Source: Bacteroidota bacterium (lineage in GTDB: Bacteria; Bacteroidota; Bacteroidia; Sphingobacteriales; Sphingobacteriaceae). From it: a stretch of 64,000 bases of DNA. Below, in pieces: positions 10,171 through 21,948 of this stretch (its first letter is position 1; each line of letters begins with the position of its first letter). Made by a program: the position numbers and the translations under genes. Location: assembly GCA_040390445.1 (NCBI GenBank), contig JAZJYI010000008.1, forward strand, positions 551,994 to 615,993. Reading direction: 5' to 3'. A model generated the notes under the pieces. That model was not told the origin of the DNA and searched no databases. It saw only the letters and a list, made by a program, of their open reading frames with translations.

Positions 10171-10213
10171 GATATATACATATATTTGCAGTGTAGTAAT
10201 CGTTCTTTAAGTA

Positions 10214-10325
10214 CTTATCCAGAAAGACAGAGGGAAAGGCCCGATGACGTCTTAGCAACCTGTACCGGTTTTATAAACTTGTAAAAGGTGCTAATTCCTG
10301 CTCCGCTAAACGGAGAGAGATAAGA
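10214..10325 (+). ncRNA. SAM-I (S-box) riboswitch
   Basis: P1 CTTATC/GATAAG, P2 AAGAC/GTCTT with GAGGG..CCCGATGA, J2/3 AGCAACC, GGTGCTAATTCC and P4 CTCCG-ctaaa-CGGAG. It lies downstream of a TAnnTTTG promoter. Confidence 0.9.
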
Positions 10326-10424
10326 TGACCATAGAAATTCAAATATTCCACCTACCTGATTTCTTCGCGCTTCTGAATCTGATAAGTATTTACAGGCAAT
10401 TTGTAAATAATTAAAAGTACCAAC

Positions 10425-11561
10425 ATGAGCATTTATCTGGACAACGCTGCAACAACACAATTAGACAGGGAAGTATTTGATGCAATGACCCCATATTTAT
10501 TACAGAATTTTGGCAACCCGTCATCACATCATGTACATGGCAGGGTGGTGAAAAATGCTATTGAAAAAGCAAGGGAAACCATAGCCGGCCTGTTGAACGC
10601 ATCACCCGATGAAATTGTATTTACCAGCGGTGGCACTGAGGCCGATAATACAGCCATCCTGTCGAGCGTTCGTTCACATCAAATAAAACATGTTATTACC
10701 ACACCGTTTGAGCACCACGCTGTTTTACACACTCTTGAGGTTTTAAGAAATAACGACGAAATAAAACTAAGCTTTATTAATACCGATAGTAGGGGTAACT
10801 TGGATATAAATCACCTGGATGCCCTGTTGAAAAATAACGAACGCTCGCTGGTATCGGTAATGCATGCCAATAATGAAATTGGTAACCTTAACAATATTGA
10901 ACTGATTGGCGAGGTCTGTAAAAGCAGGGGCGCACTTTTTCACTCAGACACCGTACAGACCATGGGCCATTACCGGCACGATATGTCAAAACTAAAAACA
11001 CATTTTATAGCCGCATCGGCACATAAATTTCATGGGCCAAAAGGGGTGGGGTTTATATACTGCCGCAATGGTGTACAGCTATCACAATTATTGCACGGCG
11101 GTTCGCAGGAACGTAAACAAAGGGCAGGTACTGAAAATATCCATGGCATTATTGGCCTGGCAAAAGCTTTAGAGATAGCCTACCGCGATATTGACGGGCA
11201 CCAGGCATACATACAAAAATTAAAAAACAGGATGATTGCTAAATTGCAGGAACAAATAGGCGATGTACAGTTTAACGGTAACTCGGCCATTGCCGATAAA
11301 AGCCTGTATACTGTACTAAGTGCAAGCCTGCCGGTTAATCATGCGTCCGGAGATTTGCTTACCTATCTCGATCAGAATGATATTTCGGTATCGGGTGGCA
11401 GCGCATGTTCAACAGGCTCGGCATCACATGTATTACAGGCTATCGGTGCTGATACATTTAGAAATACGATCAGATTCTCGTTCAGTAAATTCAATACTGC
11501 CGAAGAAATTGATTATACCGTAGAAAAGCTATCAGCCTTATACAAGGCTATAGCAGCATAA
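10425..11561 (+). CDS. iscS: Cysteine desulfurase, IscS/NifS-like PLP enzyme
   Basis: Motifs IYLDNAATT, FGNPSS, FTSGGTEADN, SAHKFHGPKG and the catalytic SGGSACS. No isc or suf scaffold genes are adjacent, so the symbol denotes the family only. Confidence 0.85.
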   Translation: MSIYLDNAATTQLDREVFDAMTPYLLQNFGNPSSHHVHGRVVKNAIEKARETIAGLLNASPDEIVFTSGGTEADNTAILSSVRSHQIKHVITTPFEHHAVLHTLEVLRNNDEIKLSFINTDSRGNLDINHLDALLKNNERSLVSVMHANNEIGNLNNIELIGEVCKSRGALFHSDTVQTMGHYRHDMSKLKTHFIAASAHKFHGPKGVGFIYCRNGVQLSQLLHGGSQERKQRAGTENIHGIIGLAKALEIAYRDIDGHQAYIQKLKNRMIAKLQEQIGDVQFNGNSAIADKSLYTVLSASLPVNHASGDLLTYLDQNDISVSGGSACSTGSASHVLQAIGADTFRNTIRFSFSKFNTAEEIDYTVEKLSALYKAIAA

Positions 11562-11570
11562 TATTAAAAT

Positions 11571-12017
11571 ATGAGAAAATTTATAATAAGTGCGGGCATT
11601 ATATTATCGGGTTTTTACGCTAACGCGCAAATCCTTACCCCGGTTAAGTGGGCCTACGCAAGTAAACGGCTCAATAAAAATGAGGCTGTTATTTTGGTAA
11701 AAGCAACTATTGAAAAAGGCTGGCACATTTATTCGCAAAATGTAGCCGATGGCGGGCCGGTTAAAACGGCTTTGGTTTTTACCAAATCTGACGAGTATAA
11801 TTTGGTTAACAAGCCTACTGAACCTCAACCGTTAAAAAAATATGAAAAGGCTTTTGATATGGATGTAACCTACTTTGAAAATACGGTTGTGTTTCAGCAA
11901 AAAGTAAAGCTTGTAAAAGATCAGCCGATTATTAACGGAACCGTATCATACATGGCTTGTAGCAACAAAGAGTGCCTGCCGCCAGAGGATGTTACTTTTA
12001 GCGTAAGCGTAAAATAG
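11571..12017 (+). CDS. Stand-alone DsbD N-terminal (alpha) domain protein, exported
   Basis: Signal peptide (ANA-Q), GWHIYS and C-terminal YMACSNKECLPP. Confidence 0.8.
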   Translation: MRKFIISAGIILSGFYANAQILTPVKWAYASKRLNKNEAVILVKATIEKGWHIYSQNVADGGPVKTALVFTKSDEYNLVNKPTEPQPLKKYEKAFDMDVTYFENTVVFQQKVKLVKDQPIINGTVSYMACSNKECLPPEDVTFSVSVK

Positions 12018-12126
12018 ATAAACATTAACAATAATATATAGCATATACACCTACTATCTCACTATTAGATATTAAGTCAATCCTCCACCAATTGATTTTA
12101 TTATTTATAACAGAATAATAAATAAA

Positions 12127-12222
12127 ATGAAAACTGACCCATCTAAAACCTTTATTACCATCCACCATCATTTAGCAGCCTGTTCGGGTACTGCTGTGCA
12201 AAGCTGTTGTTGCCATTTTTAG
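12127..12222 (+). CDS. Candidate Cys/His-rich micropeptide, 31 aa (MKTDPSKTFITIHHHLAACSGTAVQSCCCHF)
   Basis: Translated by hand. It has an A-rich upstream context (AATAATAAATAAA-ATG) and ends in CCC like the second micropeptide. Confidence 0.5.
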   Translation: MKTDPSKTFITIHHHLAACSGTAVQSCCCHF

Positions 12223-12266
12223 GTACACACAACGGGAAAACTAATTAAACTTTATTTAAAAGATTA

Positions 12267-12353
12267 ACATCCTGGCGCTGTATATAGCAACGAGGCTTTA
12301 TGCAATGGTGGAACTTCATTTTGCTGAATTGCTATTGCAGTATGCCGGGATGT
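12267..12353 (+). other. Long imperfect RNA hairpin of unknown role
   Basis: ACATCCTGGC pairs with GCCGGGATGT and TAGCAA pairs with TTGCTA, enclosing an inner GCAATG/CATTTTGC stem. Confidence 0.45.
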
Positions 12354-12415
12354 AAATCAAAAACAATATGCCAATACAAAAAATGTATTATTACGATAAA
12401 TATTTTTAATAAATA

Positions 12416-12433
12416 CTACTAAATCTATAGATA
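12416..12433. promoter_or_regulatory. Putative operator, copy 2 (upstream of the second SAM-I-like RNA)
   Basis: CTACTAAATCTATAGATA is 15/18 identical to the reverse complement of 10153-10170. Confidence 0.45.
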
Positions 12434-12500
12434 TAGTTTGCTTTATTGATATTTATTGTTACCTTTACTGCATCTAATTAACCCCACCATTAATTAGTTG

Positions 12501-12610
12501 ATTTATTAAGAAAAAGGGAGAGGAAGCCTCGATGATCTTTTAGCAACTTTTCAGATATCTGGAATAAGTGCTCTACTTTATCTGATGGAATAATCCAACG
12601 GATAATAAAT
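12501..12610 (+). ncRNA. Divergent SAM-I-like riboswitch
   Basis: The elements occur in the same order as in 10214-10325: TTATT-AAGA, P2 AAAAG/CTTTT with GAGG-aag-CCTC-GATGA, AGCAAC, P3 TTCAGA/TCTGGA, GTGCT, P4 TGGA/TCCA, GATAA. Confidence 0.6.
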
Positions 12611-12622
12611 TAACTAAGTGTT

Positions 12623-12700
12623 ATGAAAAATTTGAAGTATCCAAAAGTAAACAAACAAACAACCGCTACTCCACCGCGATGTTGTTGTATGTGCATGTAG
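12623..12700 (+). CDS. Candidate sulfur-sensing leader peptide, 25 aa (MKNLKYPKVNKQTTATPPRCCCMCM)
   Basis: The last six codons are TGT TGT TGT ATG TGC ATG, then TAG. It starts 12 nt after the SAM-I-like RNA and ends 160 nt before the first operon gene. Confidence 0.65.
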   Translation: MKNLKYPKVNKQTTATPPRCCCMCM

Positions 12701-12860
12701 TTTCCCGTATTACCCCAGGTAAGTTTTAATTACACGGATTAGGTATCAATGGCTTTGCCCGTTGCTGCTTATAGAACTGTTATGCCTCAAATTTTGTCTG
12801 CACTTCCTTAATCTTCATTAAGCAAGTAAAAAAATCATTAACAACATTAAAATTCAAACT

Positions 12861-14177
12861 ATGAACTTCAAAAATTATCTATCAAAAGCAAAATACCTTA
12901 CACTGGGTGTTTTATTAAGTGGTGCAGCGGTAGCGGGGGATAAAGTGCCGGCAGCAAAATTTATTAAAGAGGGCGTATGGCGTGGCGTATTTACGGTGAG
13001 CGAATCGCAGGTGCCGTTTAACTTCGAGCTGAAAGGGAAAGACCCGCAGCATGCCATATTTACATTGATAAACGGAACCCGCCGTGATAACTTTCATGTT
13101 GAGCGCCGCGGTAATGATTCAGTATACATTAAAATGAATACCTACGATGCCGCATTGGTCGCTAAAATAAACGATGATAATACCATTAGCGGTGAATACC
13201 GCAGTCTGGTACCCGGTTTTAGGGGGAATGCCCTGCCATTTACGGCCGAATATGGTAAAAATTATCGCTTTGTAGAGCCAGGTAAAGACGTAGCCCCGGC
13301 TGCCGACTTATCCGGTAAATGGGAAATCAAAACCTATAGTAAAGAAGCCGTCCCTGCATCTATCGCCATATTAAAACAAAAAGGAAATAAGCTAACAGGC
13401 GTGGTGATGACTGTTGTTGGCGACACCCGCGAACTGGAAGGCACTGTACAAGGCGACGAATTTGCGCTGAGTGGTTTTACCGGCCCAAGTCCGTTTATTA
13501 TAAAAGGTAAAATAAATGCTGATGGCACTATTAGCGGCGAAGAAGGTTTCGGCATCTACAAAAACCTGAAGTTTGATGCCACTAAGAACGCAGCTGTTGA
13601 GTTGCCCGATCCATATAAACTAACCTTCCTAAAAGAGGGCTACAAAAAACTTGATTTTTCTTTCCCTGGCATTGACGGCAAACAGGTATCGTTAAGCGAC
13701 GAAAAATACAAAGGCAAGGTTGTTATTATTGAGATAATTGGTACATGGTGCCCAAATTGCACCGATCAAACCGTATTCCTGTCGCCATGGTTTAATAAAA
13801 ACCGCCAGCGTGGGGTAGAAGCCATAGCTATTGGTTTTGAGCAAAAAGACAGCCTGGAGTACGCCAAATACACATTAGGAAAGCTGAAAGAAAAATATAA
13901 CATTAACTATGATATTGCCTTTGGCGGCCTGGCCGATAAAAAGCTGGTATCGCAAAAGCTGCCCGCGCTAAATAAGTTTATCGCTTTCCCAACTACTATT
14001 ATTATTGATAGAAAAGGCGATGTGCGAGAGATTTACACCGGCTATACAGGTACCGTAACCGGCAAATATCACGAGGATTACGAAAAGAAATTCAACAAAG
14101 TATTGGACGAGTTGATTGCCGAGCCAGCACCAGAAACGGCACAGGTTGTTGATAAAAACGCGAGTCAGGGTAAATAA
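12861..14177 (+). CDS. TlpA-family thioredoxin-like disulfide reductase with a large N-terminal beta domain (copy 1)
   Basis: Sec signal; C-terminal redoxin domain with GTWCPNC and FPTTIIIDRKG. Confidence 0.88.
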   Translation: MNFKNYLSKAKYLTLGVLLSGAAVAGDKVPAAKFIKEGVWRGVFTVSESQVPFNFELKGKDPQHAIFTLINGTRRDNFHVERRGNDSVYIKMNTYDAALVAKINDDNTISGEYRSLVPGFRGNALPFTAEYGKNYRFVEPGKDVAPAADLSGKWEIKTYSKEAVPASIAILKQKGNKLTGVVMTVVGDTRELEGTVQGDEFALSGFTGPSPFIIKGKINADGTISGEEGFGIYKNLKFDATKNAAVELPDPYKLTFLKEGYKKLDFSFPGIDGKQVSLSDEKYKGKVVIIEIIGTWCPNCTDQTVFLSPWFNKNRQRGVEAIAIGFEQKDSLEYAKYTLGKLKEKYNINYDIAFGGLADKKLVSQKLPALNKFIAFPTTIIIDRKGDVREIYTGYTGTVTGKYHEDYEKKFNKVLDELIAEPAPETAQVVDKNASQGK

Positions 14178-14199
14178 ACTTTAAACCGAACATAAACAT

Positions 14200-15504
14200 A
14201 TGAAAACTAACAATTTAAAAGGGCTTTTAATAGGCTTGTTATTTAGCGGTGCCGCTTTCGCAGGCGACAAAGAACCGGTAAAATTTATTAAAGAAGGCGT
14301 TTGGCGCGGTGTATTCCGTGTAAGCGAATCACAGGTGCCGTTCAACTTTGAATTTAAAGGCAAGGATGCAGAGCATGCGGTGTTTACGCTGCTAAATGGC
14401 ACCCGCCGGGATAATTTCCATGTACAAAAAATAGGTAAAGATTCGGTGTTCATTAAAATGAATACCTACGATGCAGCCCTTGTTGCCAAAATTGAAGAGG
14501 ATGGCACGCTAAGCGGCGAGTACCGCAGCCTGGTACCGGGTTTTAGAGGCAACTCGTTGCCTTTTACTGCCGAGTATGGCAAAAACTACCGCTTTGTTGA
14601 ACCGGGCAAGGATGTTGCCCCGGCAGCAAACCTAACCGGTAAGTGGGAGTTGAAGGTTTACTCGAAAGAGCAGGTGCCAAACAAAATTGCTGTTCTTAAA
14701 CAAAACGGCAATAAGCTAACCGGTGTAATTATGCAGGTAACCGGCGACAGCCGCGAATTGGAAGGTACAGTACAGGGCGATCAGTTCGAACTATCCGGTT
14801 TCACTGGCCCAAGCCCAAAGATTTATCATGGTAAAATAAATGCAGATGGCACCCTGAGTGGCGAAATTGGCTCCGGTATTTACGATAATACCAAGTTTGA
14901 CGCTGTAAAAGATGAAAAAGCCGAACTGCCTGATCCATATAAGCTAACTTTTTTAAAAGAAGGCTATAAGAAACTGGATTTCACTTTCCCTGACCTGAAC
15001 GGCAAAGCGGTATCATTAAGCGATGATAAATATAAAGGCAAAGTGGTTATTGTAGAGATTATAGGTACCTGGTGCCCTAACTGTACTGATCAAACCGTGT
15101 TTTTGTCGCCATGGTTCAACAAAAACCACCAGCGTGGGGTAGAAGCCATTGCTCTTGGTTTTGAGCAAAAGGATAGCCTTAAATACGCTCAATATACCTT
15201 AGGTAAGTTGCGCGATAAATATGATGTGAAATACGACATCCTTTTTGGCGGCCTGGCCGATAAAAAATTGGTATCGCAAAAACTGCCTGCGCTTAATAAG
15301 TTCGTGGCATTCCCAACTACGATCATCATCGATAGGAAAGGCGAAGTACGCGAGATCTATACCGGCTACACCGGCACGGTAACCGGTAAATATTACAAGG
15401 ATTACGAAAAGAAATTTAATGCCCTGCTTGATAAACTATTGGCAGAAGATGCGCCAACAACCGCCGCCGTAAGCACAGACGATAACGCATCAAAAGGAAG
15501 ATAA
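14200..15504 (+). CDS. TlpA-family thioredoxin-like disulfide reductase (copy 2, tandem paralogue)
   Basis: Colinear with the previous gene and highly similar along its whole length, with the same WCPNC motif. Confidence 0.88.
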   Translation: MKTNNLKGLLIGLLFSGAAFAGDKEPVKFIKEGVWRGVFRVSESQVPFNFEFKGKDAEHAVFTLLNGTRRDNFHVQKIGKDSVFIKMNTYDAALVAKIEEDGTLSGEYRSLVPGFRGNSLPFTAEYGKNYRFVEPGKDVAPAANLTGKWELKVYSKEQVPNKIAVLKQNGNKLTGVIMQVTGDSRELEGTVQGDQFELSGFTGPSPKIYHGKINADGTLSGEIGSGIYDNTKFDAVKDEKAELPDPYKLTFLKEGYKKLDFTFPDLNGKAVSLSDDKYKGKVVIVEIIGTWCPNCTDQTVFLSPWFNKNHQRGVEAIALGFEQKDSLKYAQYTLGKLRDKYDVKYDILFGGLADKKLVSQKLPALNKFVAFPTTIIIDRKGEVREIYTGYTGTVTGKYYKDYEKKFNALLDKLLAEDAPTTAAVSTDDNASKGR

Positions 15505-15594: not shown

Positions 15595-16251
15595 ATGAAA
15601 TTAACAATTGGCCTATCGGTAATAACCATAGCATCTATTGCAGCATTAACTGGCATAGCTCCAAACAAAACAAACCATGTAAAACCCACGGCAATTGCAG
15701 TAAATCCTATCAGGTTTGCAAAACCGGTTGTTTTTAAAGTAGATAACCAAACCAGCAAACTTACCTGGCTGGCTAAAAAAGCCACCGGCGAACACTCTGG
15801 CACCGTAGAAGTAAGCGATGGTAGCTTTACCCTTGATAATAACACACTAAAAGCAGGTAGCTTTGATATTGATACCCGTAGTATTACAGACACGGATATT
15901 ACCGACGAAGGTGCAAACGGTAAACTGGTTACTCACCTAAAAAGCGACGACTTTTTCAGTGTAGAAAAGCACCCTAAAGCAAACTTTGTGCTTACATCTG
16001 CCACAAAAGCAGCGGGTAATATTTATAATGTTAAAGGTAACCTAACCATAAAAGGCATCACTAACGAGGTAACTTTTCCGGCTACGGTTGCGGTAAACGG
16101 TAAAAAGCTAACTGCCAACGCTAAGATCACCATAGATCGTACCAAGTACGATATCAAATTCCGGTCTAAAAACTTCTTTGAGAATTTGGGCGACAAAGTG
16201 ATCTATGACGATTTTGATATTAATGTGGCGCTTGTAGCCAACGCCCAATAA
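15595..16251 (+). CDS. YceI family exported lipophile-binding protein
   Basis: Signal peptide; motifs LTWLAKKATGEHSG, LVTHLKSDDFFSVEKHP, GNLTIKGIT and IDRTKYDI. Confidence 0.9.
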   Translation: MKLTIGLSVITIASIAALTGIAPNKTNHVKPTAIAVNPIRFAKPVVFKVDNQTSKLTWLAKKATGEHSGTVEVSDGSFTLDNNTLKAGSFDIDTRSITDTDITDEGANGKLVTHLKSDDFFSVEKHPKANFVLTSATKAAGNIYNVKGNLTIKGITNEVTFPATVAVNGKKLTANAKITIDRTKYDIKFRSKNFFENLGDKVIYDDFDINVALVANAQ

Positions 16252-16283
16252 ATAAAGAAACTACATTGATTAGGTTGGAAGAT

Positions 16284-16316
16284 AAAGATCCCTGCTTTGA
16301 GCGGGCAGGGACTTTA
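16284..16316 (+). terminator. Intercistronic hairpin or weak intrinsic terminator
   Basis: TCCCTGC-tttgagcgg-GCAGGGA followed by CTTTATT. Confidence 0.5.
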
Positions 16317-16366
16317 TTGACTAATAAACTCGTAAATAATATACCATAACAGCTGAGCAAATAACC

Positions 16367-17332
16367 ATGAAAAAGAAGAATATCACCTTAACTATAATAA
16401 GTGTTACGCTTTTATTCATTACCACGGTAAGCTTCATGTCGGGGCCCGATGAAGTGCAAACCAGGGAAGAGCTTGGCCGTAAACTATTTTTTGATAACAT
16501 CCTTTCAAAAGACAATACTATTAATTGCTCATCGTGCCATAACCCCGAGTTTGCATTTGCCGATACCTCTGTATTTAGTAAAGGTATTGGTGGTAAGCTA
16601 ACTGCACGTAATTCGCCGGGGCTTACAAATTTATCGGGCCGTACCCACTTTTTTTGGGATGGCCGCGCAGCCTCGTTAGAAGAACAGGCCCTCGGGCCAA
16701 TTACATCGCCCGATGAGATGGGTTTACCCATTGAAGAGGCTATTGAACGACTTAACAAAAACGAATTTTATGCAAACGCTTTTCAAAAAATATTTAAAGC
16801 AGCGCCGAATAAAGATAATTTGTTGAAAGCACTTGCTGCTTTTGAACGGACGCTGGAAACAAGCAACAGCCCTTATGACCGCTATATAAATGGTGATGAT
16901 AATGCATTATCAGCCGCTGCGGTACGTGGCCGCAATATATTTATAGGCAAGGGTAACTGTAACAACTGCCACTCTGGCGAAGATTTTACCGCAGACCGCT
17001 TTAAAAGCATTGGCTTATATAATGGCAAAGACCTGAACGATGCCGGCAGGTTCAAAATAACAAAAGACAGCACCGTACTGGGCGAATTTAAAATACCAGG
17101 TTTGCGTAATGTAGCCGTAACAGCGCCATACATGCACAACGGTAAGTTTAAAACTCTGCGCAACGTGGTGGAGTATTACAACAATCCATCAGCTTTGGTA
17201 AGTGACGGTATAAACCGCGACCTGTCTTTAGATAAACCATTGAACCTTTCATCGCAGGATATAGATGACGTAGTTGAATTCCTGAAAGCCTTAACTGATG
17301 ACAGGTTCGCCAAAAATATAAGCAGAAACTGA
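16367..17332 (+). CDS. Di-heme cytochrome c peroxidase superfamily protein, MauG/MbnH-like
   Basis: Two CxxCH motifs (CSSCH, CNNCH), FFWDGRAASLEEQA and FKIPGLRNVAVTAPYMHNG; signal peptide. Confidence 0.88.
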   Translation: MKKKNITLTIISVTLLFITTVSFMSGPDEVQTREELGRKLFFDNILSKDNTINCSSCHNPEFAFADTSVFSKGIGGKLTARNSPGLTNLSGRTHFFWDGRAASLEEQALGPITSPDEMGLPIEEAIERLNKNEFYANAFQKIFKAAPNKDNLLKALAAFERTLETSNSPYDRYINGDDNALSAAAVRGRNIFIGKGNCNNCHSGEDFTADRFKSIGLYNGKDLNDAGRFKITKDSTVLGEFKIPGLRNVAVTAPYMHNGKFKTLRNVVEYYNNPSALVSDGINRDLSLDKPLNLSSQDIDDVVEFLKALTDDRFAKNISRN

Positions 17333-17430
17333 TACCATAAACTAATCTGAACACTTAAAAGCAAAATGTAATGCGGGCCAAACGGCCTGTACGAAATGCC
17401 CTTTTGCCTAAATTTTAACACAATAAAACA

Positions 17431-20202
17431 ATGAAAAGAGCTATACTTTATATATTATTCTTAAGCCTTATTTATGGGCAAAATACACTGGCGCAGGAGG
17501 CGAGACGGGTAACCGGCGTAGTTACGTCGGCCGATGATGGCCAGCCCTTACCTGGTGTATCTGTACAGGTAAAAGGTACTAATGAGGGTACTGTCACTAA
17601 ACTTGATGGTACGTTTGAACTAAATATAACTACCGGTAAATACCTTATTTTTTCTTTTGTAGGGTACGAAACACAAGAGATTTATATTGATGGTATCCGC
17701 AGGTTTAACGTGGCGCTAAAGCCAAAAGGCAATCAATTGGGCGATGTGCAAATCATCGGTTCACGTAACGCAAACCGTACCAAGCTTAACTCGGCCAACC
17801 CGGTTGATATTATTGATATTAAGGCGCTACAGGAGAGCAGCCCGCAGGTAAGCGTTACTCAACTGCTGCAATACGTATCACCGTCATTCCACTCATCCGT
17901 ATCTGGTGGTGGTGATGCGGCATCGGCAACCTCAACAGCGCAATTGCGTGGGTTGGGAGTAGATCAATTACTGGTTCTGATAAACGGTAAACGCCGCCAT
18001 AAAAGCTCTAACATCAGTTGGGGTGGTTTGGGTAATGGTGCTACCGGTTATGATCTAAACTCTATCCCAACCGGTTCTATAGACCGCATTGAGATACTAC
18101 GCGATGGTGCGGCCGCTCAATATGGTTCTGATGCTATTGCAGGGGTAATTAATATTGTATTGAAGAAATCTACCGATCAGTTAACGCTTAATTCTACTGC
18201 CAGTAGCCGCCGCCGGGGGGATGGCATTACTACGCGTACCAGTAGCAATTACGGCGTTAAACTCGGTGACAAAGGTGGTTTTTTAAACTTGACCGGCGAA
18301 TTTGCTACCCAGGCGGTATCCTTGCCGGTAGGTAGGGATGATGCAGGTTTGTATATAGGCCCTGCATATGGCGGGGGCGCTAACACCCGCGGTTTCGATC
18401 AGATCTATACCAAAGAAATAGATGATGCCATCATCAAATCAAGAGGGATAGACAGGCATTACTTTGACCAGCGCGGCAGCACCAATAAAGCTATTGACGC
18501 ATTGCTGTTCTTTAATGCGGCGGTACCTTTACAAAAAGACGTTGAACTATATAGTTTTGGTGGTATAAGCCAGCGCAATTCACAATTTACGGCCGTTTAC
18601 CGTTTACCAGGCTGGACAGAGCGTAACAATACATTTGTTTATCCTGATGGCTTTTTACCGGCCATGGATAACATCATTTCTGATAAATCATTAGCGGTAG
18701 GCGTAAAAGCCAAAGTACACGGTTGGAATGTAGATATATCAAACGTGTACGGTAATAATAGCTTTGGTAACAATATCTCTAACTCGCTTAATGCAAGCTA
18801 CGGCTTACGTTCGCCGCGTAAATTTGACGCGGGGAGTTATAGCGCCAGCCAGAATACCGGTAGTTTAGATTTTAGCCGCTACTTTGATAAGGTACTGAAA
18901 GGGGTGAACATTGCCTTTGGCGGCCAGTATCGTGTTGAAACTTACCGTATCAATGCAGGCGATGAGGCGTCTTATTCTAAAGCCGACCTGAGGCAGATAT
19001 ACGGTGTGGATACGACATCAGGCGGTATACCTTACACAACATCGTTAGGGCAAACGCCGCTAAACGGTTTATCGCCAGGCTCACAGATCCACGCGGGTTT
19101 CAGGCCAAGTAACGAGGTGAACGTAAACCGCTCCATCTCTGCAGGCTACGCCGATGTGGAAGTGAACGCAACCAACGCCTGGTTGGTATCTGGCGCTTTG
19201 CGAGTTGAGAACTACTCAGATTTTGGGAGCGTATTTACTTACAAAGCCGCAACCCGTTATAAATTTGCCGATTTCTTAAGCGTTCGTGGTTCCATTAACA
19301 CCGGCTTCCGCGCACCCGATCTGGCACAGTTCTATTATACCGAAACATCAACAACGTTCCAGAATGGAGTAGCTATTGATCAGGTTACGGCTAACAACGT
19401 TAATCCGGCTACCAAAGCCTTAGGTATACCGAGCTTAACGCCTGAGCGGTCTAAAGGCTATACCGCTGGTATCACCTCATCGCCCATACCAAATTTTGAG
19501 TTTACGATTGATGCTTATAAAATTGATATCCGCGACAGGGTAGGTAACACGGGCCGTTTTTCGGCTACAGACACCAACCTACCTGCAGATGTAAGGGCAT
19601 TATTTGTGGCAACGGGTACGGTACAGGCTAAGTTCTTCTACAATTCCTTTAGTACCAGTACCAGAGGGGTGGAGCTTACAGGTAGTTATAAATATACTTT
19701 CGAGAATGGCGCTAAAGCAACTTTCCTGGTAGGGGCCAATTTCCTGGAAACTAAATTGACTAAAGTGAACACCCCACCAGGACTGGAAGCGTACCGCTAC
19801 ATTATATTTGATGAGTCGGAGAAGGCTCGTGTAACTAACAACATACCGTCTAAAAAGATCACCTTACAAGGTACTTATGGAATAGACAGGTTCAACTTCC
19901 TGCTGCGTACGGTTTACTTTGGCTCGGTAGTTTCAGTTACCCAATTAAACGCCAATTTTCCTAAGCCCGATTATTACTACCAAACGTTCAGTCCGGTTTG
20001 GATAACCGATTTATCTGTAGGGTATGCGGTATCTAAAAACTTATCGGCTACGATAGGTGCCAACAACCTGTTCAATATACTGGGCGATTATACTATCCCT
20101 GCACCGGGTAGTAACATTACCCGCATCCCTGGCCCGGGCTCTTCACAGGCAGGGACCAATACAGGTATACAGCCATTTGTAAGATTATCGGCTAAATTTT
20201 AA
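17431..20202 (+). CDS. TonB-dependent receptor with an N-terminal carboxypeptidase-regulatory-like domain (not SusC type)
   Basis: Plug motifs LVLINGKRRH and RIEILRDGAAAQYGSDAIAGVINIVLK; C-terminal Phe; no SusD downstream. Confidence 0.92.
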   Translation: MKRAILYILFLSLIYGQNTLAQEARRVTGVVTSADDGQPLPGVSVQVKGTNEGTVTKLDGTFELNITTGKYLIFSFVGYETQEIYIDGIRRFNVALKPKGNQLGDVQIIGSRNANRTKLNSANPVDIIDIKALQESSPQVSVTQLLQYVSPSFHSSVSGGGDAASATSTAQLRGLGVDQLLVLINGKRRHKSSNISWGGLGNGATGYDLNSIPTGSIDRIEILRDGAAAQYGSDAIAGVINIVLKKSTDQLTLNSTASSRRRGDGITTRTSSNYGVKLGDKGGFLNLTGEFATQAVSLPVGRDDAGLYIGPAYGGGANTRGFDQIYTKEIDDAIIKSRGIDRHYFDQRGSTNKAIDALLFFNAAVPLQKDVELYSFGGISQRNSQFTAVYRLPGWTERNNTFVYPDGFLPAMDNIISDKSLAVGVKAKVHGWNVDISNVYGNNSFGNNISNSLNASYGLRSPRKFDAGSYSASQNTGSLDFSRYFDKVLKGVNIAFGGQYRVETYRINAGDEASYSKADLRQIYGVDTTSGGIPYTTSLGQTPLNGLSPGSQIHAGFRPSNEVNVNRSISAGYADVEVNATNAWLVSGALRVENYSDFGSVFTYKAATRYKFADFLSVRGSINTGFRAPDLAQFYYTETSTTFQNGVAIDQVTANNVNPATKALGIPSLTPERSKGYTAGITSSPIPNFEFTIDAYKIDIRDRVGNTGRFSATDTNLPADVRALFVATGTVQAKFFYNSFSTSTRGVELTGSYKYTFENGAKATFLVGANFLETKLTKVNTPPGLEAYRYIIFDESEKARVTNNIPSKKITLQGTYGIDRFNFLLRTVYFGSVVSVTQLNANFPKPDYYYQTFSPVWITDLSVGYAVSKNLSATIGANNLFNILGDYTIPAPGSNITRIPGPGSSQAGTNTGIQPFVRLSAKF

Positions 20203-20224
20203 ATCATATCAATAAACAGAACTC

Positions 20225-21139
20225 ATGAAAATAATGGAATATATTTTAAAAAGAATAAAAAATCCAGAAAGGCTGCGAGGGCTTCAACCTGTCTATGCGT
20301 TAAGTATGCTTATAATATTACTATCAGCATCCTGCAAAAAAACCAATTACCTGGATACTGATAATTCGCAAAGGCCGCCATTAAGCGCCAGGGTGAAATT
20401 GGTGAACGCCTTAAGCATAACCGCGCCAATAAACTTCCTGGATTTTACCAGGCAGGTTAACACCAGCCTGGTAGTTCATAATGCATCTACAGGTTACCTG
20501 GATACACAATTTGGCAAGGTACAATACAACACCACCGAGGGTAGCAATACCAGTTACAAGTCATCATACGTGTTTGGCGGGAGTGCCATTTTTCAGCAGG
20601 AGACGGATAAAGCATCTTTTTCGGGCCCTAATGGCCCCATAGCCGATTTTTATCATACACTATTTGCGGTAGCCAAACGTAAGCCCAGCAAATTAAACCC
20701 CGGTAACCGCGACAGCCTGGTATTGGTTTATGATGATCTGGATGCCCCGGCAGCAGGCAAAACCAAAGTAAGGTTTGCTAACTTCTCGCCCGATGCACCA
20801 AATGTAAGTTTTGCTGCGGCAGGCGGCACCGCCATATTTACCAACGTAGGCTACGGTAGTTTTGGCGATCAAACCGTACTTACTTATGACGCTACAGGTA
20901 AAGGCCCTGCCACCATACCGGGACTAAACTGGAAAACCCTGGGGCCATTTAAAGAGATAGCACCCACGGCAGTAGTAAACTTTGAGATAAGGAATGCCAC
21001 CACCAATGCTGTGATCCCGGTAACCGGAACAGGGTTAACAGGGGTAACATTTGAGGCCGGGAAAATATATACCGTGTTTATAAACGGAACGGTAACAGGT
21101 GGAACTTTAAGCGCGACGATAATTACCCATACTAAGTAA
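20225..21139 (+). CDS. DUF4397-like surface lipoprotein
   Basis: Lipobox LSASC followed by KK; two repeats of the type RVKLVNA and KVRFANFSPDAP; C-terminal GKIYTVFING. Confidence 0.75.
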   Translation: MKIMEYILKRIKNPERLRGLQPVYALSMLIILLSASCKKTNYLDTDNSQRPPLSARVKLVNALSITAPINFLDFTRQVNTSLVVHNASTGYLDTQFGKVQYNTTEGSNTSYKSSYVFGGSAIFQQETDKASFSGPNGPIADFYHTLFAVAKRKPSKLNPGNRDSLVLVYDDLDAPAAGKTKVRFANFSPDAPNVSFAAAGGTAIFTNVGYGSFGDQTVLTYDATGKGPATIPGLNWKTLGPFKEIAPTAVVNFEIRNATTNAVIPVTGTGLTGVTFEAGKIYTVFINGTVTGGTLSATIITHTK

Positions 21140-21175
21140 CAGCACATACAATAAGTGATTTAATATTTGTGCTTT

Positions 21176-21211
21176 AAAGGCAGCGCGGCTTTATACCCGC
21201 CTGCCCTTTTT
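21176..21211 (+). terminator. Intrinsic terminator-like hairpin before sod
   Basis: AAAGGCAGCGCGG pairs imperfectly with CCGCCTGCCCTTT and is followed by a T run. Confidence 0.55.
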
Positions 21212-21237
21212 AACGTTTAATTATAAAAACAATAGCC

Positions 21238-21948
21238 ATGAAAGATAACAGTAGAAGACAATTCATCAAAAATACCCTTGCAGCTACCGCAGCCGTAACC
21301 GTGGGCACATCTTTAATAGATAGTTCAACCGCGTTTGCAGGTGTAGAAGCATTTAAGTTTACACAGGTGCCGCTGCCATTTAAATACGCCGACCTGGAGC
21401 CGAATATTGATGCATTAACTAATGAAATACATTATACAAAGCACCACACCGCATATATTAAAAATGTGAATGATGCCATTGTTGCCGAAAAGATACCCTA
21501 CACCAGCGAAAAGCAATTTTTTGACAATGCCTCAAAACTATCGGCCAAGGCCCGAAACAACGCAGGCGGCGCCTGGAACCATAACTTTTTTTGGGAAAGT
21601 TTGCGCGCACCAGGTGGGGCAGGGCCTCAGGGTAAATTGTTGGATGCTATCAACGGCTCCTTTGGTTCACTTGATAAACTAAAAGAACAATTTAACGATG
21701 CCGCTACAAAACGTTTTGGATCTGGCTGGGCATGGCTGGTTGTTGATGGCGGGAAATTAAAGATTGGGTCAACAGCTAACCAGGATAATCCATTATTTGA
21801 TAATGCCGAACTAAAAGGAACGCCTTTATTGGGCCTGGATGTTTGGGAACATGCCTACTATTTAAAGTACCAGAATCGCCGCCCCGAGTATATTGCTAAT
21901 TTTTGGAATGTAGTTAACTGGGATAAAGTAGCATCGCGATTGAGTTAG
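21238..21948 (+). CDS. sodA: Tat-exported Fe/Mn superoxide dismutase with Mn-type residues
   Basis: Twin-arginine signal SRRQFIK; metal ligands in HYTKHH, NHNFFW and DVWEHAYY. GG in NNAGG and NQD are typical of Mn-type enzymes. Confidence 0.9.
   Translation: MKDNSRRQFIKNTLAATAAVTVGTSLIDSSTAFAGVEAFKFTQVPLPFKYADLEPNIDALTNEIHYTKHHTAYIKNVNDAIVAEKIPYTSEKQFFDNASKLSAKARNNAGGAWNHNFFWESLRAPGGAGPQGKLLDAINGSFGSLDKLKEQFNDAATKRFGSGWAWLVVDGGKLKIGSTANQDNPLFDNAELKGTPLLGLDVWEHAYYLKYQNRRPEYIANFWNVVNWDKVASRLS

What the first reader, a model, noticed from the sequence alone, without database searches (positions are those of the whole stretch)
12623..12700. Leader peptide ending in CCCMCM behind a SAM-I-like RNA
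Seen: a 25-aa ORF whose only sulfur residues, apart from the start, are six consecutive Cys/Met codons just before the stop. It lies between the riboswitch-like RNA and the first operon gene, and is followed by a C-rich, G-poor tract (TTTCCCGTATTACCCC) with no clear intrinsic terminator. Known: amino-acid attenuator peptides carry runs of the sensed residue. Inference: ribosome stalling on uncharged tRNA-Cys or tRNA-Met relieves termination, possibly Rho-dependent. In tandem with the SAM sensor this would give a two-input sulfur gate.
Basis: partly seen in the sequence, partly recalled or inferred. Interest (0 to 1): 0.8.

Follow-up and report, generated by a model that had tools for sequence, protein, structure and literature searches.

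The report
SAM riboswitch plus Cys/Met leader peptide
A tiny unannotated gene ending in cysteine and methionine codons sits 11 bases behind a SAM-sensing riboswitch and is conserved in frame in related bacteria, so one mRNA leader probably reads both SAM and charged Cys/Met-tRNA before switching on a sulfur-related operon; I found no published description of this pairing.

Summary
Window 12623-12700(+) encodes MKNLKYPKVNKQTTATPPRCCCMCM*, and its ATG lies 11 nt after the P1 helix of an Rfam-validated SAM-I aptamer (12500-12611).

It is not chance. In 29 homologous leaders:
- the ATG is invariant;
- the ATG-to-Arg distance is always a multiple of 3;
- CGA-UGY-UGY-UGY is nearly invariant, with T/C wobble changes;
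- the N-terminus drifts freely.

The same design precedes this genome's metY. It also precedes 23 of 29 metY and 5 of 12 metX SAM-I leaders in the family, but 0 of 44 metH leaders.

Natural variants separate the two modules. Many Pedobacter keep the aptamer without the ORF. A few keep the ORF with a decayed aptamer.

The best reading is a ribosome-stalling sensor of Cys/Met-tRNA whose translation is gated by the SAM aptamer. The ORF's last codons and stop form one strand of a conserved long-range helix that a stalled ribosome would cover. That output step is inferred.

The closest known systems are the mycobacterial poly-Cys sORFs and the mgtA riboswitch with mgtL. I class this as a new variant of a known kind.

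The parts
12460..12467 (+). Candidate Bacteroidota -7 promoter box, TACCTTTA, about 30 nt upstream of the aptamer.
   Evidence: Read from the sequence. The same octamer sits at the same relative place in Pedobacter locus L184. It resembles the TAnnTTTG/TAHHTTTG consensus reported in PMC6847099. This is an inference and was not tested.
12500..12611 (+). SAM-I (S-box) riboswitch aptamer. Its P1 helix is made only of A-U and G-U pairs (5' GAUUUAUU, 3' AAUAAAUU at 12604-12611).
   Evidence: Rfam RF00162, 52.4 bits against a gathering score of 44.4, full-length model match. SAM-I aptamers are also found in front of the orthologous gene in Pedobacter, Mucilaginibacter, Arcicella and Dyadobacter.
12612..12622 (+). 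An 11-nt linker, AACUAAGUGUU, between P1 and the leader start codon. AUAAAUUAACU is invariant in 29 homologues.
   Evidence: Alignment A1. Across the class, the ATG lies 7-12 nt after the aptamer in 27 of the 29 ORF-bearing leaders. In the other two an in-frame upstream ATG lies inside P1 and a second ATG follows about 9 nt after the aptamer.
12623..12700 (+). Leader ORF of 25 codons plus UAG: MKNLKYPKVNKQTTATPPRCCCMCM*.
   Evidence: The ATG is conserved in 29 of 29 homologues. The ATG-to-CGA distance is 54, 51, 48 or 18 nt, always a multiple of 3. Further members come from metagenomes.
12677..12697 (+). Sensor codons: CGA UGU UGU UGU AUG UGC AUG (Arg-Cys-Cys-Cys-Met-Cys-Met).
   Evidence: CGA is present in 28 of 29 homologues. 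The three Cys codons read TGT:TGC 24:3, 26:3 and 21:7, so the wobble base varies while the residue is kept. CGA is the rarest Arg codon in this genome (3.7% of Arg codons), and Cys accounts for 0.70% of codons.
12693..12705 (+). 5' strand of the long-range helix: GCAUG.UAGUUUCC. It covers the last two sense codons, the stop codon and 5 nt beyond.
   Evidence: The helix appears in the RNAfold minimum-energy structure of 11 of 13 group-1 sequences. In the count of structure pairs, 92.4% of cells are paired, against 36-45% when the partner strand is slid. Two pairs change on both sides.
12706..12772 (+). Interior of the folded domain. It holds two hairpins, the second being GGUAUCAAUGGCUUUGCCCGUUGCUGCU.
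   Evidence: RNAfold of the window and its homologues. The hairpin sequences differ between homologues while the stems are kept.
12773..12785 (+). 3' strand of the long-range helix: AGAACUG.UUAUGC.
   Evidence: L158 changes UGC to UAC in the ORF and compensates with UAUGC to UAUGU here.
12786..12795 (+). Conserved tract CUCAAAUUUU directly after the helix. It may be a non-canonical termination or pause site.
   Evidence: UAUGCC-N-AAAUUUU is conserved in all three leader subgroups. Its function is inferred only. It is not a canonical terminator.
12861..15504 (+). First genes controlled by the leader: two paralogous 438- and 434-aa exported proteins with a C-terminal AhpC/TSA-Redoxin (TlpA-like) domain.
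   Evidence: Pfam scan. Orthologues follow the same leader in 78 loci.
15595..21948 (+). Probable remainder of the operon: YceI-like protein, di-haem cytochrome c peroxidase (CCP/MauG family), TonB-dependent receptor, DUF4397 protein, and a Tat-signal Fe/Mn superoxide dismutase.
   Evidence: Pfam scan. All lie on the same strand with gaps of 22-115 nt. How far the operon extends was not tested.
12127..12222 (+). Second, upstream Cys-tailed short ORF of 31 aa: MKTDPSKTFITIHHHLAACSGTAVQSCCCHF*.
   Evidence: Cys-tailed ORFs lie at the same relative place in Mucilaginibacter and Pedobacter loci.
12263..12357 (+). Conserved long hairpin following the upstream ORF. The closing stem is AACAUCCUGG...CCGGGAUGU and the apical motif is AAUGGUGG.
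   Evidence: RNAfold. It is present in 40 distinct loci, with different stem sequences in Mucilaginibacter and Pedobacter. There is no Rfam match and no other convincing copy in this genome: one further pattern match at C8:455914 looks like coding sequence.

Best explanation
The 25-codon ORF is a regulatory leader peptide, and its product is not the point. Its tail, a rare CGA Arg codon followed by UGU-UGU-UGU-AUG-UGC-AUG, acts as a ribosome-stalling sensor for charged tRNA-Cys and tRNA-Met. Because the ATG lies 11 nt behind the weak, all-A/U P1 helix of a SAM-I aptamer, SAM binding probably closes P1 and keeps ribosomes off this Shine-Dalgarno-less start. The ORF would then be translated only when SAM is low. 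The ORF's last two sense codons, its stop codon and the next 5 nt form the 5' strand of a conserved long-range helix. This helix closes a roughly 95-nt folded domain (12693-12785) that is followed by a conserved CAAAUUUU tract. I take this domain to be the OFF structure, acting by premature termination, pausing or occlusion. A ribosome held on the Cys/Met codons would cover that strand, stop the domain from forming, and let the TlpA-like/YceI/peroxidase/TonB-receptor operon be expressed. With no ribosome (high SAM), or a ribosome that finishes and leaves (ample Cys/Met), the domain folds and expression stays low. The net logic is an AND gate: low SAM and low Cys/Met-tRNA. Shown here: the ORF, its in-frame conservation, its codon pattern, its coupling to SAM-I, its recurrence before metY/metX, and the helix overlapping its end. 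Inferred: translation, stalling, gating by P1, and how the domain represses.
For: 1. ORF and aptamer. 2. In-frame conservation in 29 orthologous leaders. The ATG is present in 29 of 29, every length difference between ATG and CGA is a multiple of 3, CGA-UGY-UGY-UGY is nearly invariant with T/C wobble changes, and the N-terminus is variable at 12-37 aa. Metagenome copies add to this. 3. The same architecture occurs a second time in this genome before metY-metX-hom (MKSLIYLAQQNTSQTQTGQSFVYNLSAGCICMCCCCC*, ATG 7 nt after P1). 4. In a survey of 127 SAM-I aptamers in 61 genomes of the family, the ORF follows 23 of 29 metY and 5 of 12 metX aptamers, always 7-12 nt after P1. It follows 0 of 44 metH, 0 of 6 metE and 0 of 2 metF aptamers. 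5. Cys/Met-run ORFs occur before metY in at least 8 families of the phylum. 6. Codon choice favours slow decoding. CGA makes up 3.7% of Arg codons, and UGU is the minor Cys codon yet is used in 71 of 84 positions. 7. Natural variants separate the modules. Pedobacter L189-L205 keep the aptamer and have no ORF after it. Pedobacter L184, and by ORF sequence L183, L185 and L186, keep the ORF behind an aptamer that in L184 has decayed to P1 plus one hairpin. 8. The helix overlapping the stop codon has 92% of cells paired against 36-45% when slid. A Cys-to-Tyr codon change in L158 is compensated on the far strand. 9. In ORF-less leaders, P1 is followed directly by the closing helix of a comparable domain. 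This fits the domain being the riboswitch's OFF structure.
Against: - There is no direct evidence of translation or stalling.
- No canonical terminator lies between the ORF and the gene, in this leader or in 27 of 28 sister leaders. The output step is therefore unknown.
- Covariation in the helix is thin. The shuffle control is not significant because the strands hardly vary.
- The window's own copy has a weaker 3' strand (AUAGAAC instead of AUGGAAC), and its minimum-energy fold uses a shifted register.
- Subgroup 2 leaders (RCCC[MLC][VA]QY[AV]FWF*) do not show the same closing helix.
- The invariance of CGAUGUUGUUG could partly reflect an RNA-level constraint.
- The operon's link to sulfur supply is itself inferred.
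Confidence: 0.62

Rival explanations
1. The ORF is translated but serves only as a relay for the riboswitch. Ribosomes admitted when SAM is low open the downstream domain or shield the RNA from Rho. The Cys/Met codons add no separate input, and their conservation reflects the RNA helix and UG-rich pairing needs.
For: The ATG sits a fixed 7-12 nt after P1. The ORF's end overlaps a conserved helix. CGAUGUUGUUG is conserved at the nucleotide level. UG-rich Cys tracts can pair with CA-rich stretches in the same leaders.
Against: The Cys/Met enrichment recurs in leaders whose nucleotide sequences and downstream structures are unrelated (UGC-rich, UGU-rich and AUG-rich tails). Wobble positions vary while the residue is kept. 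The enrichment occurs specifically before Cys/Met-consuming steps, metY and metX, and not before metH/metE/metF. Pedobacter L184 keeps the ORF after losing the aptamer.
Confidence: 0.14
2. The nascent or released Cys/Met-rich peptide is itself the active agent. It could be a metal-sensing (for example Cu(I)) or redox-sensing arrest peptide like CruR, a metal-binding peptide, or a RiPP precursor tied to the TonB-receptor/peroxidase/thioredoxin-like operon.
For: Cys and Met are classic soft-metal ligands. The operon holds a TonB-dependent receptor, a MauG-like di-haem peroxidase, TlpA-like proteins and a superoxide dismutase. A copper-sensing uORF before a TonB receptor is known (PMC9426467).
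Against: The same kind of tail precedes metY/metX biosynthetic genes. The N-terminus and the length (12-37 aa) are not conserved. The neighbouring genes include no maturase, export or immunity genes. The peptides match no NCBIfam family, and the sequence contains no RAPP-type arrest motif. The leader is under a SAM sensor.
Confidence: 0.06
3. The stretch is an untranslated UG-rich RNA element, such as a protein-binding site or one arm of a switch. The open frame is a by-product.
For: There is no direct proof of translation. The tract can pair with CA-rich regions in the ORF and near the main start codon.
Against: The ATG is invariant at a fixed distance from P1. All length differences in 29 leaders are multiples of 3. 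A stop follows the run closely in subgroups 1 and 3. T/C wobble variation keeps the codons as Cys. The frame is shared by unrelated metY/metX leaders. Complementarity to the main gene's start region is no better than in 13.7% of random start regions.
Confidence: 0.05
4. It is a chance ORF in an AT-rich spacer.
For: Short ORFs abound: 93 ORFs of at least 20 aa lie in the 7.5 kb listed.
Against: The expected frequency is about 3e-10 per position. The ORF is also conserved across genera.
Confidence: 0.01

Closest known systems
Polycysteine leaderless short ORFs of mycobacteria (Canestrari et al., bioRxiv 10.1101/834739; read)
   Same: Both are unannotated short ORFs with a run of Cys codons at the head of cysteine/sulfur operons. 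In the mycobacterial case, ribosomes stalled in the tract block an mRNA structure that otherwise represses the downstream gene, and several such ORFs in one genome form a collective response.
   Different: The mycobacterial ORFs start at the 5' end of leaderless mRNAs and have no riboswitch. Here the ORF starts 11 nt after a SAM-I aptamer, mixes Met with Cys codons, lies in Bacteroidota (which lack Shine-Dalgarno sequences), and its end overlaps a long-range helix rather than an RBS-sequestering duplex. The test for such a duplex was inconclusive.
Salmonella/E. coli mgtA leader: a Mg2+ riboswitch plus the proline-codon ORF mgtL, with Rho-dependent termination (from my own knowledge; reviewed in PMC12360218, listed but not read)
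   Same: One mRNA leader combines a ligand-sensing RNA with a short ORF whose sensor codons report a second signal.
   Different: The ligand (SAM versus Mg2+), the sensor codons (Cys/Met versus Pro) and the phylum all differ. In mgtA the ORF lies inside the switching stem-loops. Here the aptamer comes first and appears to gate the ORF's start. Rho involvement was not tested here.
Classical leader-peptide attenuators (trpL, hisL, thrL, pheL), the predicted Cys leaders of Actinobacteria (PMC1262725) and the cysS uORF of Rhodobacterales (PMC8632094)
   Same: All are short ORFs with a run of codons for the regulated amino acid placed upstream of the operon.
   Different: The classical systems use 1:2/2:3/3:4 hairpins ending in an intrinsic terminator. 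No such terminator is found here, and none of them is coupled to a riboswitch.
Canonical S-box/SAM-I riboswitch leaders (Rfam RF00162)
   Same: The aptamer is a full-length SAM-I match, and the genes controlled across the class belong to methionine and sulfur metabolism.
   Different: The expression platform is not the usual terminator/antiterminator or SD sequestration. A translated sensor ORF is placed between the aptamer and the downstream folded domain.
CruR copper-responsive uORF (PMC9426467)
   Same: Both are upstream ORFs with Cys residues heading an operon that includes a TonB-dependent transporter.
   Different: CruR is a DUF2946 protein with a CXXC motif and a RAPP arrest motif, and it senses copper through the nascent chain. 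This peptide matches no NCBIfam family, its sequence has no arrest motif, and its N-terminus is unconserved.

Membership tests
SAM-I riboswitch (RF00162) | Aptamer sequence and four-way-junction structure matching the covariance model above the gathering score | tested here: met
   52.4 bits against a gathering score of 44.4, model positions 1-108.
SAM-I riboswitch (RF00162) | Canonical expression platform: an intrinsic terminator/antiterminator, or SD sequestration | tested here: not met
   No terminator-like site was found by the consensus scan or by my own hairpin-plus-U-run scan. Bacteroidota mRNAs lack SD sequences (PMC6847099).
SAM-I riboswitch (RF00162) | Binds SAM | not testable with these tools
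   This needs in-line probing or ITC.
Ribosome-mediated leader-peptide attenuator | Short ORF with a run of codons for the sensed amino acid, conserved in frame while the rest of the peptide drifts | tested here: met
   29 leaders; metagenome copies; metY/metX leaders.
Ribosome-mediated leader-peptide attenuator | Lies upstream of genes for synthesis or supply of that amino acid | tested here: inconclusive
   This is met for the sister leaders before metY/metX. For this operon of TlpA-like, YceI, peroxidase and TonB-receptor genes, a role in sulfur supply is inferred only from its SAM-I control.
Ribosome-mediated leader-peptide attenuator | Mutually exclusive hairpins ending in an intrinsic terminator | tested here: not met
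   There is no canonical terminator. Instead, a long-range helix overlaps the ORF's end.
Ribosome-mediated leader-peptide attenuator | The ORF is translated and ribosomes stall on starvation | not testable with these tools
Mycobacterial poly-Cys leaderless sORF attenuators | Leaderless start at the mRNA 5' end | tested here: not met
   The ORF is preceded by a 112-nt aptamer on the same leader.
Mycobacterial poly-Cys leaderless sORF attenuators | The Cys tract pairs with and masks the start region of the downstream gene | tested here: inconclusive
   The duplex with the 12861 start region is -13.0 kcal/mol, but 13.7% of 2500 random start regions of this genome pair as well.
mgtA-type dual-sensor leader | A ligand-sensing RNA and a sensor-codon ORF in one leader | tested here: met
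   This concerns architecture only.
mgtA-type dual-sensor leader | Rho-dependent termination as the output | not testable with these tools
   The C>G bias after the stop is weak and not conserved.
RiPP precursor peptide | Adjacent maturase or export genes and a conserved leader or core | tested here: not met
   Pfam finds no maturase among the neighbours. The N-terminus is not conserved. NCBIfam gives no hit.
CruR-type metal-sensing uORF | DUF2946 fold, CXXC motif and a C-terminal RAPP arrest motif | tested here: not met
   There is no family hit, and the sequence contains no RAPP.

The most novel reading that the evidence does not exclude
This 840-nt leader is a modular, multi-sensor sulfur computer. 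A SAM-I aptamer licenses translation of a Cys/Met-stalling ORF, giving an AND gate. Upstream of it lie a second poly-Cys ORF and an undescribed conserved hairpin (the AUGGUGG motif) that may be a further ligand- or protein-binding switch. Together they control an outer-membrane and periplasmic system (TonB receptor, TlpA-like reductases, di-haem peroxidase) for scavenging oxidised organosulfur compounds. Riboswitch-gated sensor ORFs would then be a general expression platform of SD-less Bacteroidota.
Probability: 0.25. Interest if true: 0.85.

Novelty: new variant of a known kind. Interest (0 to 1): 0.7.

Why it matters
- **A natural logic gate.** If confirmed, this shows a riboswitch whose expression platform is a translated sensor ORF. 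One leader would then combine a metabolite signal (SAM) with a tRNA-charging signal (Cys/Met).
- **An open question in Bacteroidota.** It would explain how SAM-I riboswitches work in a phylum without Shine-Dalgarno sequences, where I found few canonical terminators.
- **A wider sulfur regulon.** The regulon would extend beyond biosynthesis to a TonB-receptor and thiol-oxidoreductase operon of unknown role.
- **A ready-made experimental series.** Natural variants already exist: aptamer only, ORF only, and both.
- **Annotation.** Such ORFs are probably missed by annotation: the peptides match no NCBIfam family. I found no published description.

Tried and rejected
1. **Canonical terminator after the ORF.** None was found by the tool scan or by my own hairpin-plus-U-run scan, which scored 0 of 23 metY-type leaders, 1 of 5 metX-type leaders and 0 for the window.
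2. **C-rich rut site.** C>G in the 40 nt after the stop is weak (9 C against 6 G) and is not conserved in 29 homologues.
3. **Cys tract masking the main gene's start region, as in mycobacteria.** The duplex is -13.0 kcal/mol, but 13.7% of random start regions of this genome pair as well. I leave this open but unsupported.
4. **Pairing of the aptamer's 3' end (CCGGAAUAUAAAUU) with the conserved UUCUGG of subgroup 2.** One side varies without compensation on the other (alignment), so I rejected it.
5. **RNAalifold on the whole 29-sequence leader alignment.** It predicted no pairs because the alignment is too divergent. Subgroup 2 shows no common closing helix.
6. **Other known RNA families in 12000-12900 at E <= 10.** Only chance snoRNA-level hits appeared.
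7. **Peptide families.** NCBIfam gave nothing for four leader peptides.
9. **The closest sampled relative of the operon in the family set (G113, L008).** It has no SAM-I hit at the gathering score in two Rfam runs. It does have a 39-codon ORF ending MRMCMCR*.
10. **Complementarity between AAAAUUUG at the ORF start and the downstream CAAAUUUU.** A/U palindromes pair regardless of function, so this is uninformative.

Full report
**1. Observation**

Window 12623-12700(+) is an ATG-initiated ORF of 25 codons, MKNLKYPKVNKQTTATPPRCCCMCM*, ending in UAG. Rfam places a full-length SAM-I aptamer at 12500-12611, scoring 52.4 bits against a gathering score of 44.4. The 3' strand of P1 ends at 12611, and the ATG follows 11 nt later. 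The next long gene starts at 12861. The tract TTTCCCGTATTACCCC follows the stop codon, and no consensus terminator is present.

With local base composition, six Cys/Met codons followed by a stop are expected about 3e-10 times per position. In the whole genome (5.38 Mb, laid), only 6 of 319,677 stop-to-stop frames end in a run of at least 5 Cys/Met residues. Two of them lie inside or antisense to genes. The other four are intergenic:
- this one;
- one behind another SAM-I aptamer before metY-metX-hom (MKSLIYLAQQNTSQTQTGQSFVYNLSAGCICMCCCCC*, ATG 7 nt after P1);
- one between a SAM-I-controlled TlpA-like gene and a SusC/SusD pair (...ICMPAMCCCCC*);
- one before a small Hc1-like gene.

**2. Conservation of this leader**

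The 438-aa first gene recovered 78 orthologous loci. They come from Mucilaginibacter, Pedobacter, Chitinophaga, Arcicella, Dyadobacter and others. The window is 99% identical at protein level to Mucilaginibacter sp. L294.

All 29 leaders carrying AUAAAUUAACU have the ORF; 28 are Mucilaginibacter or unclassified Bacteroidota MAGs and one is Pedobacter:
- The ATG is invariant.
- The distance from the ATG to the Arg codon is 54, 51, 48 or 18 nt, a multiple of 3 in 29 of 29 leaders.
- CGA is present in 28 of 29.
- The three Cys codons vary only at the wobble base (TGT:TGC 24:3, 26:3 and 21:7).

The N-terminal part drifts freely, and total length runs from 12 to 37 aa. Three tail types occur: RCCCMC[MI]*, RCCC[MLC][VA]QY[AV]FWF* and RCCCCC[SIL]*. 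A pattern scan of metagenome contigs added further in-frame copies.

CGA is the rarest Arg codon in this genome, at 3.7% of Arg codons. UGU is the minor Cys codon, yet it fills 71 of 84 Cys positions. Cys accounts for 0.70% of all codons. This profile, with conserved sensor codons, a free remainder and slow codons, is that of a regulatory leader peptide and not of a functional protein.

**3. A wider class**

I located 127 SAM-I aptamers in 61 genomes of the family and fetched the DNA downstream of each. The results are:
- A short ORF follows 23 of 29 aptamers before metY and 5 of 12 before metX. It is 19-46 codons long and ends in a Cys/Met(-Arg)-rich tail.
- Its ATG lies 7-12 nt after the aptamer in 27 of the 29 ORF-bearing leaders. 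In the other two an in-frame upstream ATG lies inside P1 and a second ATG follows about 9 nt after the aptamer.
- No such ORF follows any of 44 aptamers before metH, 6 before metE, 2 before metF, 3 before the cysteine desulfurase or 5 before hom.

The peptides share nothing except the tail. A survey of the phylum using MetY as the anchor found Cys/Met-run ORFs before metY in at least 8 families. In one family the ORF lies upstream of the aptamer.

Notes left by other agents of this scan describe the same design before met operons in at least 8 other genomes. I treated those notes as leads only. My family and phylum surveys reproduce the core claim independently.

**4. Natural dissection of the two modules**

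SAM-I control of this operon is widespread. Rfam confirms aptamers in front of the orthologue in Pedobacter, Mucilaginibacter, Arcicella and Dyadobacter.

Many Pedobacter leaders (L189-L205) have the aptamer but no ORF behind it. In these, P1 is followed at once by the closing helix of a multibranch domain.

Pedobacter sp. V48 (L184) shows the reverse. It keeps a 12-codon ORF, MKNLKFCCCMCM*, behind an aptamer reduced to P1 plus one hairpin, with no SAM-I hit even at E <= 10. Three other Pedobacter loci (L183, L185, L186) carry the same 12-codon ORF. L185 also has no SAM-I hit next to the gene at the gathering score.

The two sensors are therefore separable modules. Mucilaginibacter combines them.

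**5. Anatomy downstream of the ORF**

There is no canonical terminator, in this leader or in 27 of 28 sister leaders.

In subgroup 1, which includes the window, the last two sense codons, the stop and the next 5 nt (GCAUG.UAGUUUCC, 12693-12705) pair with AGAACUG.UUAUGC (12773-12785). This helix closes a domain holding two hairpins. It is in the minimum-energy fold of 11 of 13 sequences. On a 12-sequence alignment, 92.4% of cells are paired, against 36-45% when the partner strand is slid by 1-3 columns. Two pairs change on both sides. One of these is a G-C to A-U swap in L158, where a Cys-to-Tyr codon change is compensated 90 nt away. The shuffle control is not significant because the strands vary little, so I rate the helix as moderately supported. 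Subgroup 3 has an analogous UUUCCC/GGGAA helix, which appears as AAUCCC/GGGAUU in L166. Subgroup 2 does not show a common closing helix.

A conserved UAUGCC-N-AAAUUUU tract follows the helix in all subgroups.

Its C>G bias is not conserved.

**6. Mechanism**

Shown:
- the ORF, its frame and its codon pattern;
- its fixed spacing from P1;
- its recurrence before metY and metX;
- the helix overlapping its end.

Inferred:
- SAM-stabilised P1 occludes roughly positions -8 to -19 of an SD-less start site. [quoted passage not shown]
- Ribosomes stall at CGA-UGU-UGU-UGU-AUG-UGC-AUG when Cys- or Met-tRNA is scarce.
- A stalled ribosome covers 12693-12705 and so prevents the OFF domain from folding.
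- The folded domain represses the operon by non-canonical termination or pausing at CAAAUUUU, by Rho, or by occlusion.

The resulting logic is ON only when SAM is low and Cys/Met-tRNA is low.

I put 0.62 on the core reading, a Cys/Met-sensing leader ORF functionally coupled to the SAM aptamer. I put about half of that on the particular structural output.

**7. Comparison with known systems**

By function, the closest are the mycobacterial poly-Cys sORFs (10.1101/834739) and classical leader-peptide attenuators. By architecture, the closest is the mgtA riboswitch with mgtL. This leader fails the defining features of each:
- it is not leaderless;
- it has no 3:4 terminator;
- its ligand and sensor codons differ from those of mgtA.

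It is a bona fide SAM-I aptamer with a non-canonical platform. Six full-text searches found no description of a SAM-I aptamer followed by a Cys/Met leader ORF. NCBIfam has no model for the peptides. I classify it as a new variant of a known kind.

**8. What is particular to this window**

- The leader controls not a biosynthetic operon but two TlpA-like thiol-disulfide oxidoreductase paralogues, a YceI-like protein, a di-haem peroxidase, a TonB-dependent receptor, a DUF4397 protein and a Tat-exported superoxide dismutase. Together with the SAM-I/Cys-ORF/SusC locus on contig 9, this suggests a sulfur-scavenging uptake system. That is inference only.
- The same 840-nt intergenic region holds a second Cys-tailed ORF (12127-12222...QSCCCHF*). 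It is followed by a conserved hairpin with an AUGGUGG motif that matches no Rfam family.

**9. Limits**

- Translation, stalling, SAM binding and Rho dependence are all untested.
- The output step of the mechanism remains the weakest link.

Noticed in passing
window 12127-12222 (+): A second Cys-tailed short ORF lies in the same intergenic region: MKTDPSKTFITIHHHLAACSGTAVQSCCCHF*. Cys-tailed ORFs sit at the same relative place in many Mucilaginibacter and Pedobacter loci. In ORF-less Pedobacter leaders this upstream ORF lies about 200 nt in front of the SAM-I aptamer. Its Cys codons pair with CACACAACGG just after its stop.
   Followed up: partly
window 12263-12357 (+): A conserved long hairpin follows the upstream ORF. 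Its closing stem is AACAUCCUGG...CCGGGAUGU and its apical motif is AAUGGUGG. It occurs in 40 distinct loci, and the stem sequences differ between Mucilaginibacter (CUGUAC/GUACAG) and Pedobacter (UACCCCGG/CCGGGGUA). It has no Rfam match and no other convincing copy in this genome: one further pattern match at C8:455914 looks like coding sequence. It is a candidate new structured RNA. MAFFT and RNAalifold mis-registered the two genera, so covariation was not quantified.
   Followed up: partly
window 12412-12434: AATACTACTAAATCTATAGATAT is a degenerate copy of a perfect palindrome, AATACTACTAAATTAGTAGTATT, seen in Pedobacter L194. In L184 the same element is followed by a U-run. It could be an operator or a terminator between the upstream ORF/hairpin unit and the SAM-I promoter.
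   Followed up: no
window 10212-10326 (+), with genes at 10425-12017: Another SAM-I aptamer (81.1 bits) controls a class-V aminotransferase/cysteine desulfurase and a DsbD_N-like exported protein. It has no Cys/Met ORF behind it.
   Followed up: partly
own genome, contig C9:217471-217632 (-), outside the window: A short ORF ending ICMPAMCCCCC* lies between a SAM-I-controlled 202-aa TlpA-like gene and a SusC/SusD pair. This is a third SAM-linked Cys leader in the genome, and it too precedes a TonB-dependent transporter.
   Followed up: no
own genome, contig C9:219928-220029 (+), outside the window: An intergenic ORF, MKKVILFVFLKFSYQPALCCCCCC*, lies upstream of a small Hc1-like gene, a tRNA-like stretch and a thioredoxin gene. 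No riboswitch was seen and its meaning is unclear.
   Followed up: no
L054/L013 (G024), L038 (G054), L066 (G037): In other genera, a SAM-I aptamer is followed 100-130 nt later by a short ORF and then a TonB-dependent receptor. The ORFs are MKKPDEQKLKISTVPNCKTIRMCMELCCSS, MKKTDELKSLDDAYFRMRRPC and MKFFTCLSAPLVTASMHCC. A 44-46%-identical TlpA-like paralogue lies nearby.
   Followed up: no
leader tails across the family (for example L083, L048, L060, L139, L008): The hexamer CGAAUG (Arg-Met), often repeated as RMRMR, recurs in Cys/Met tails, and CGA is the rarest Arg codon here. A rare Arg codon may be part of the stalling design.
   Followed up: partly
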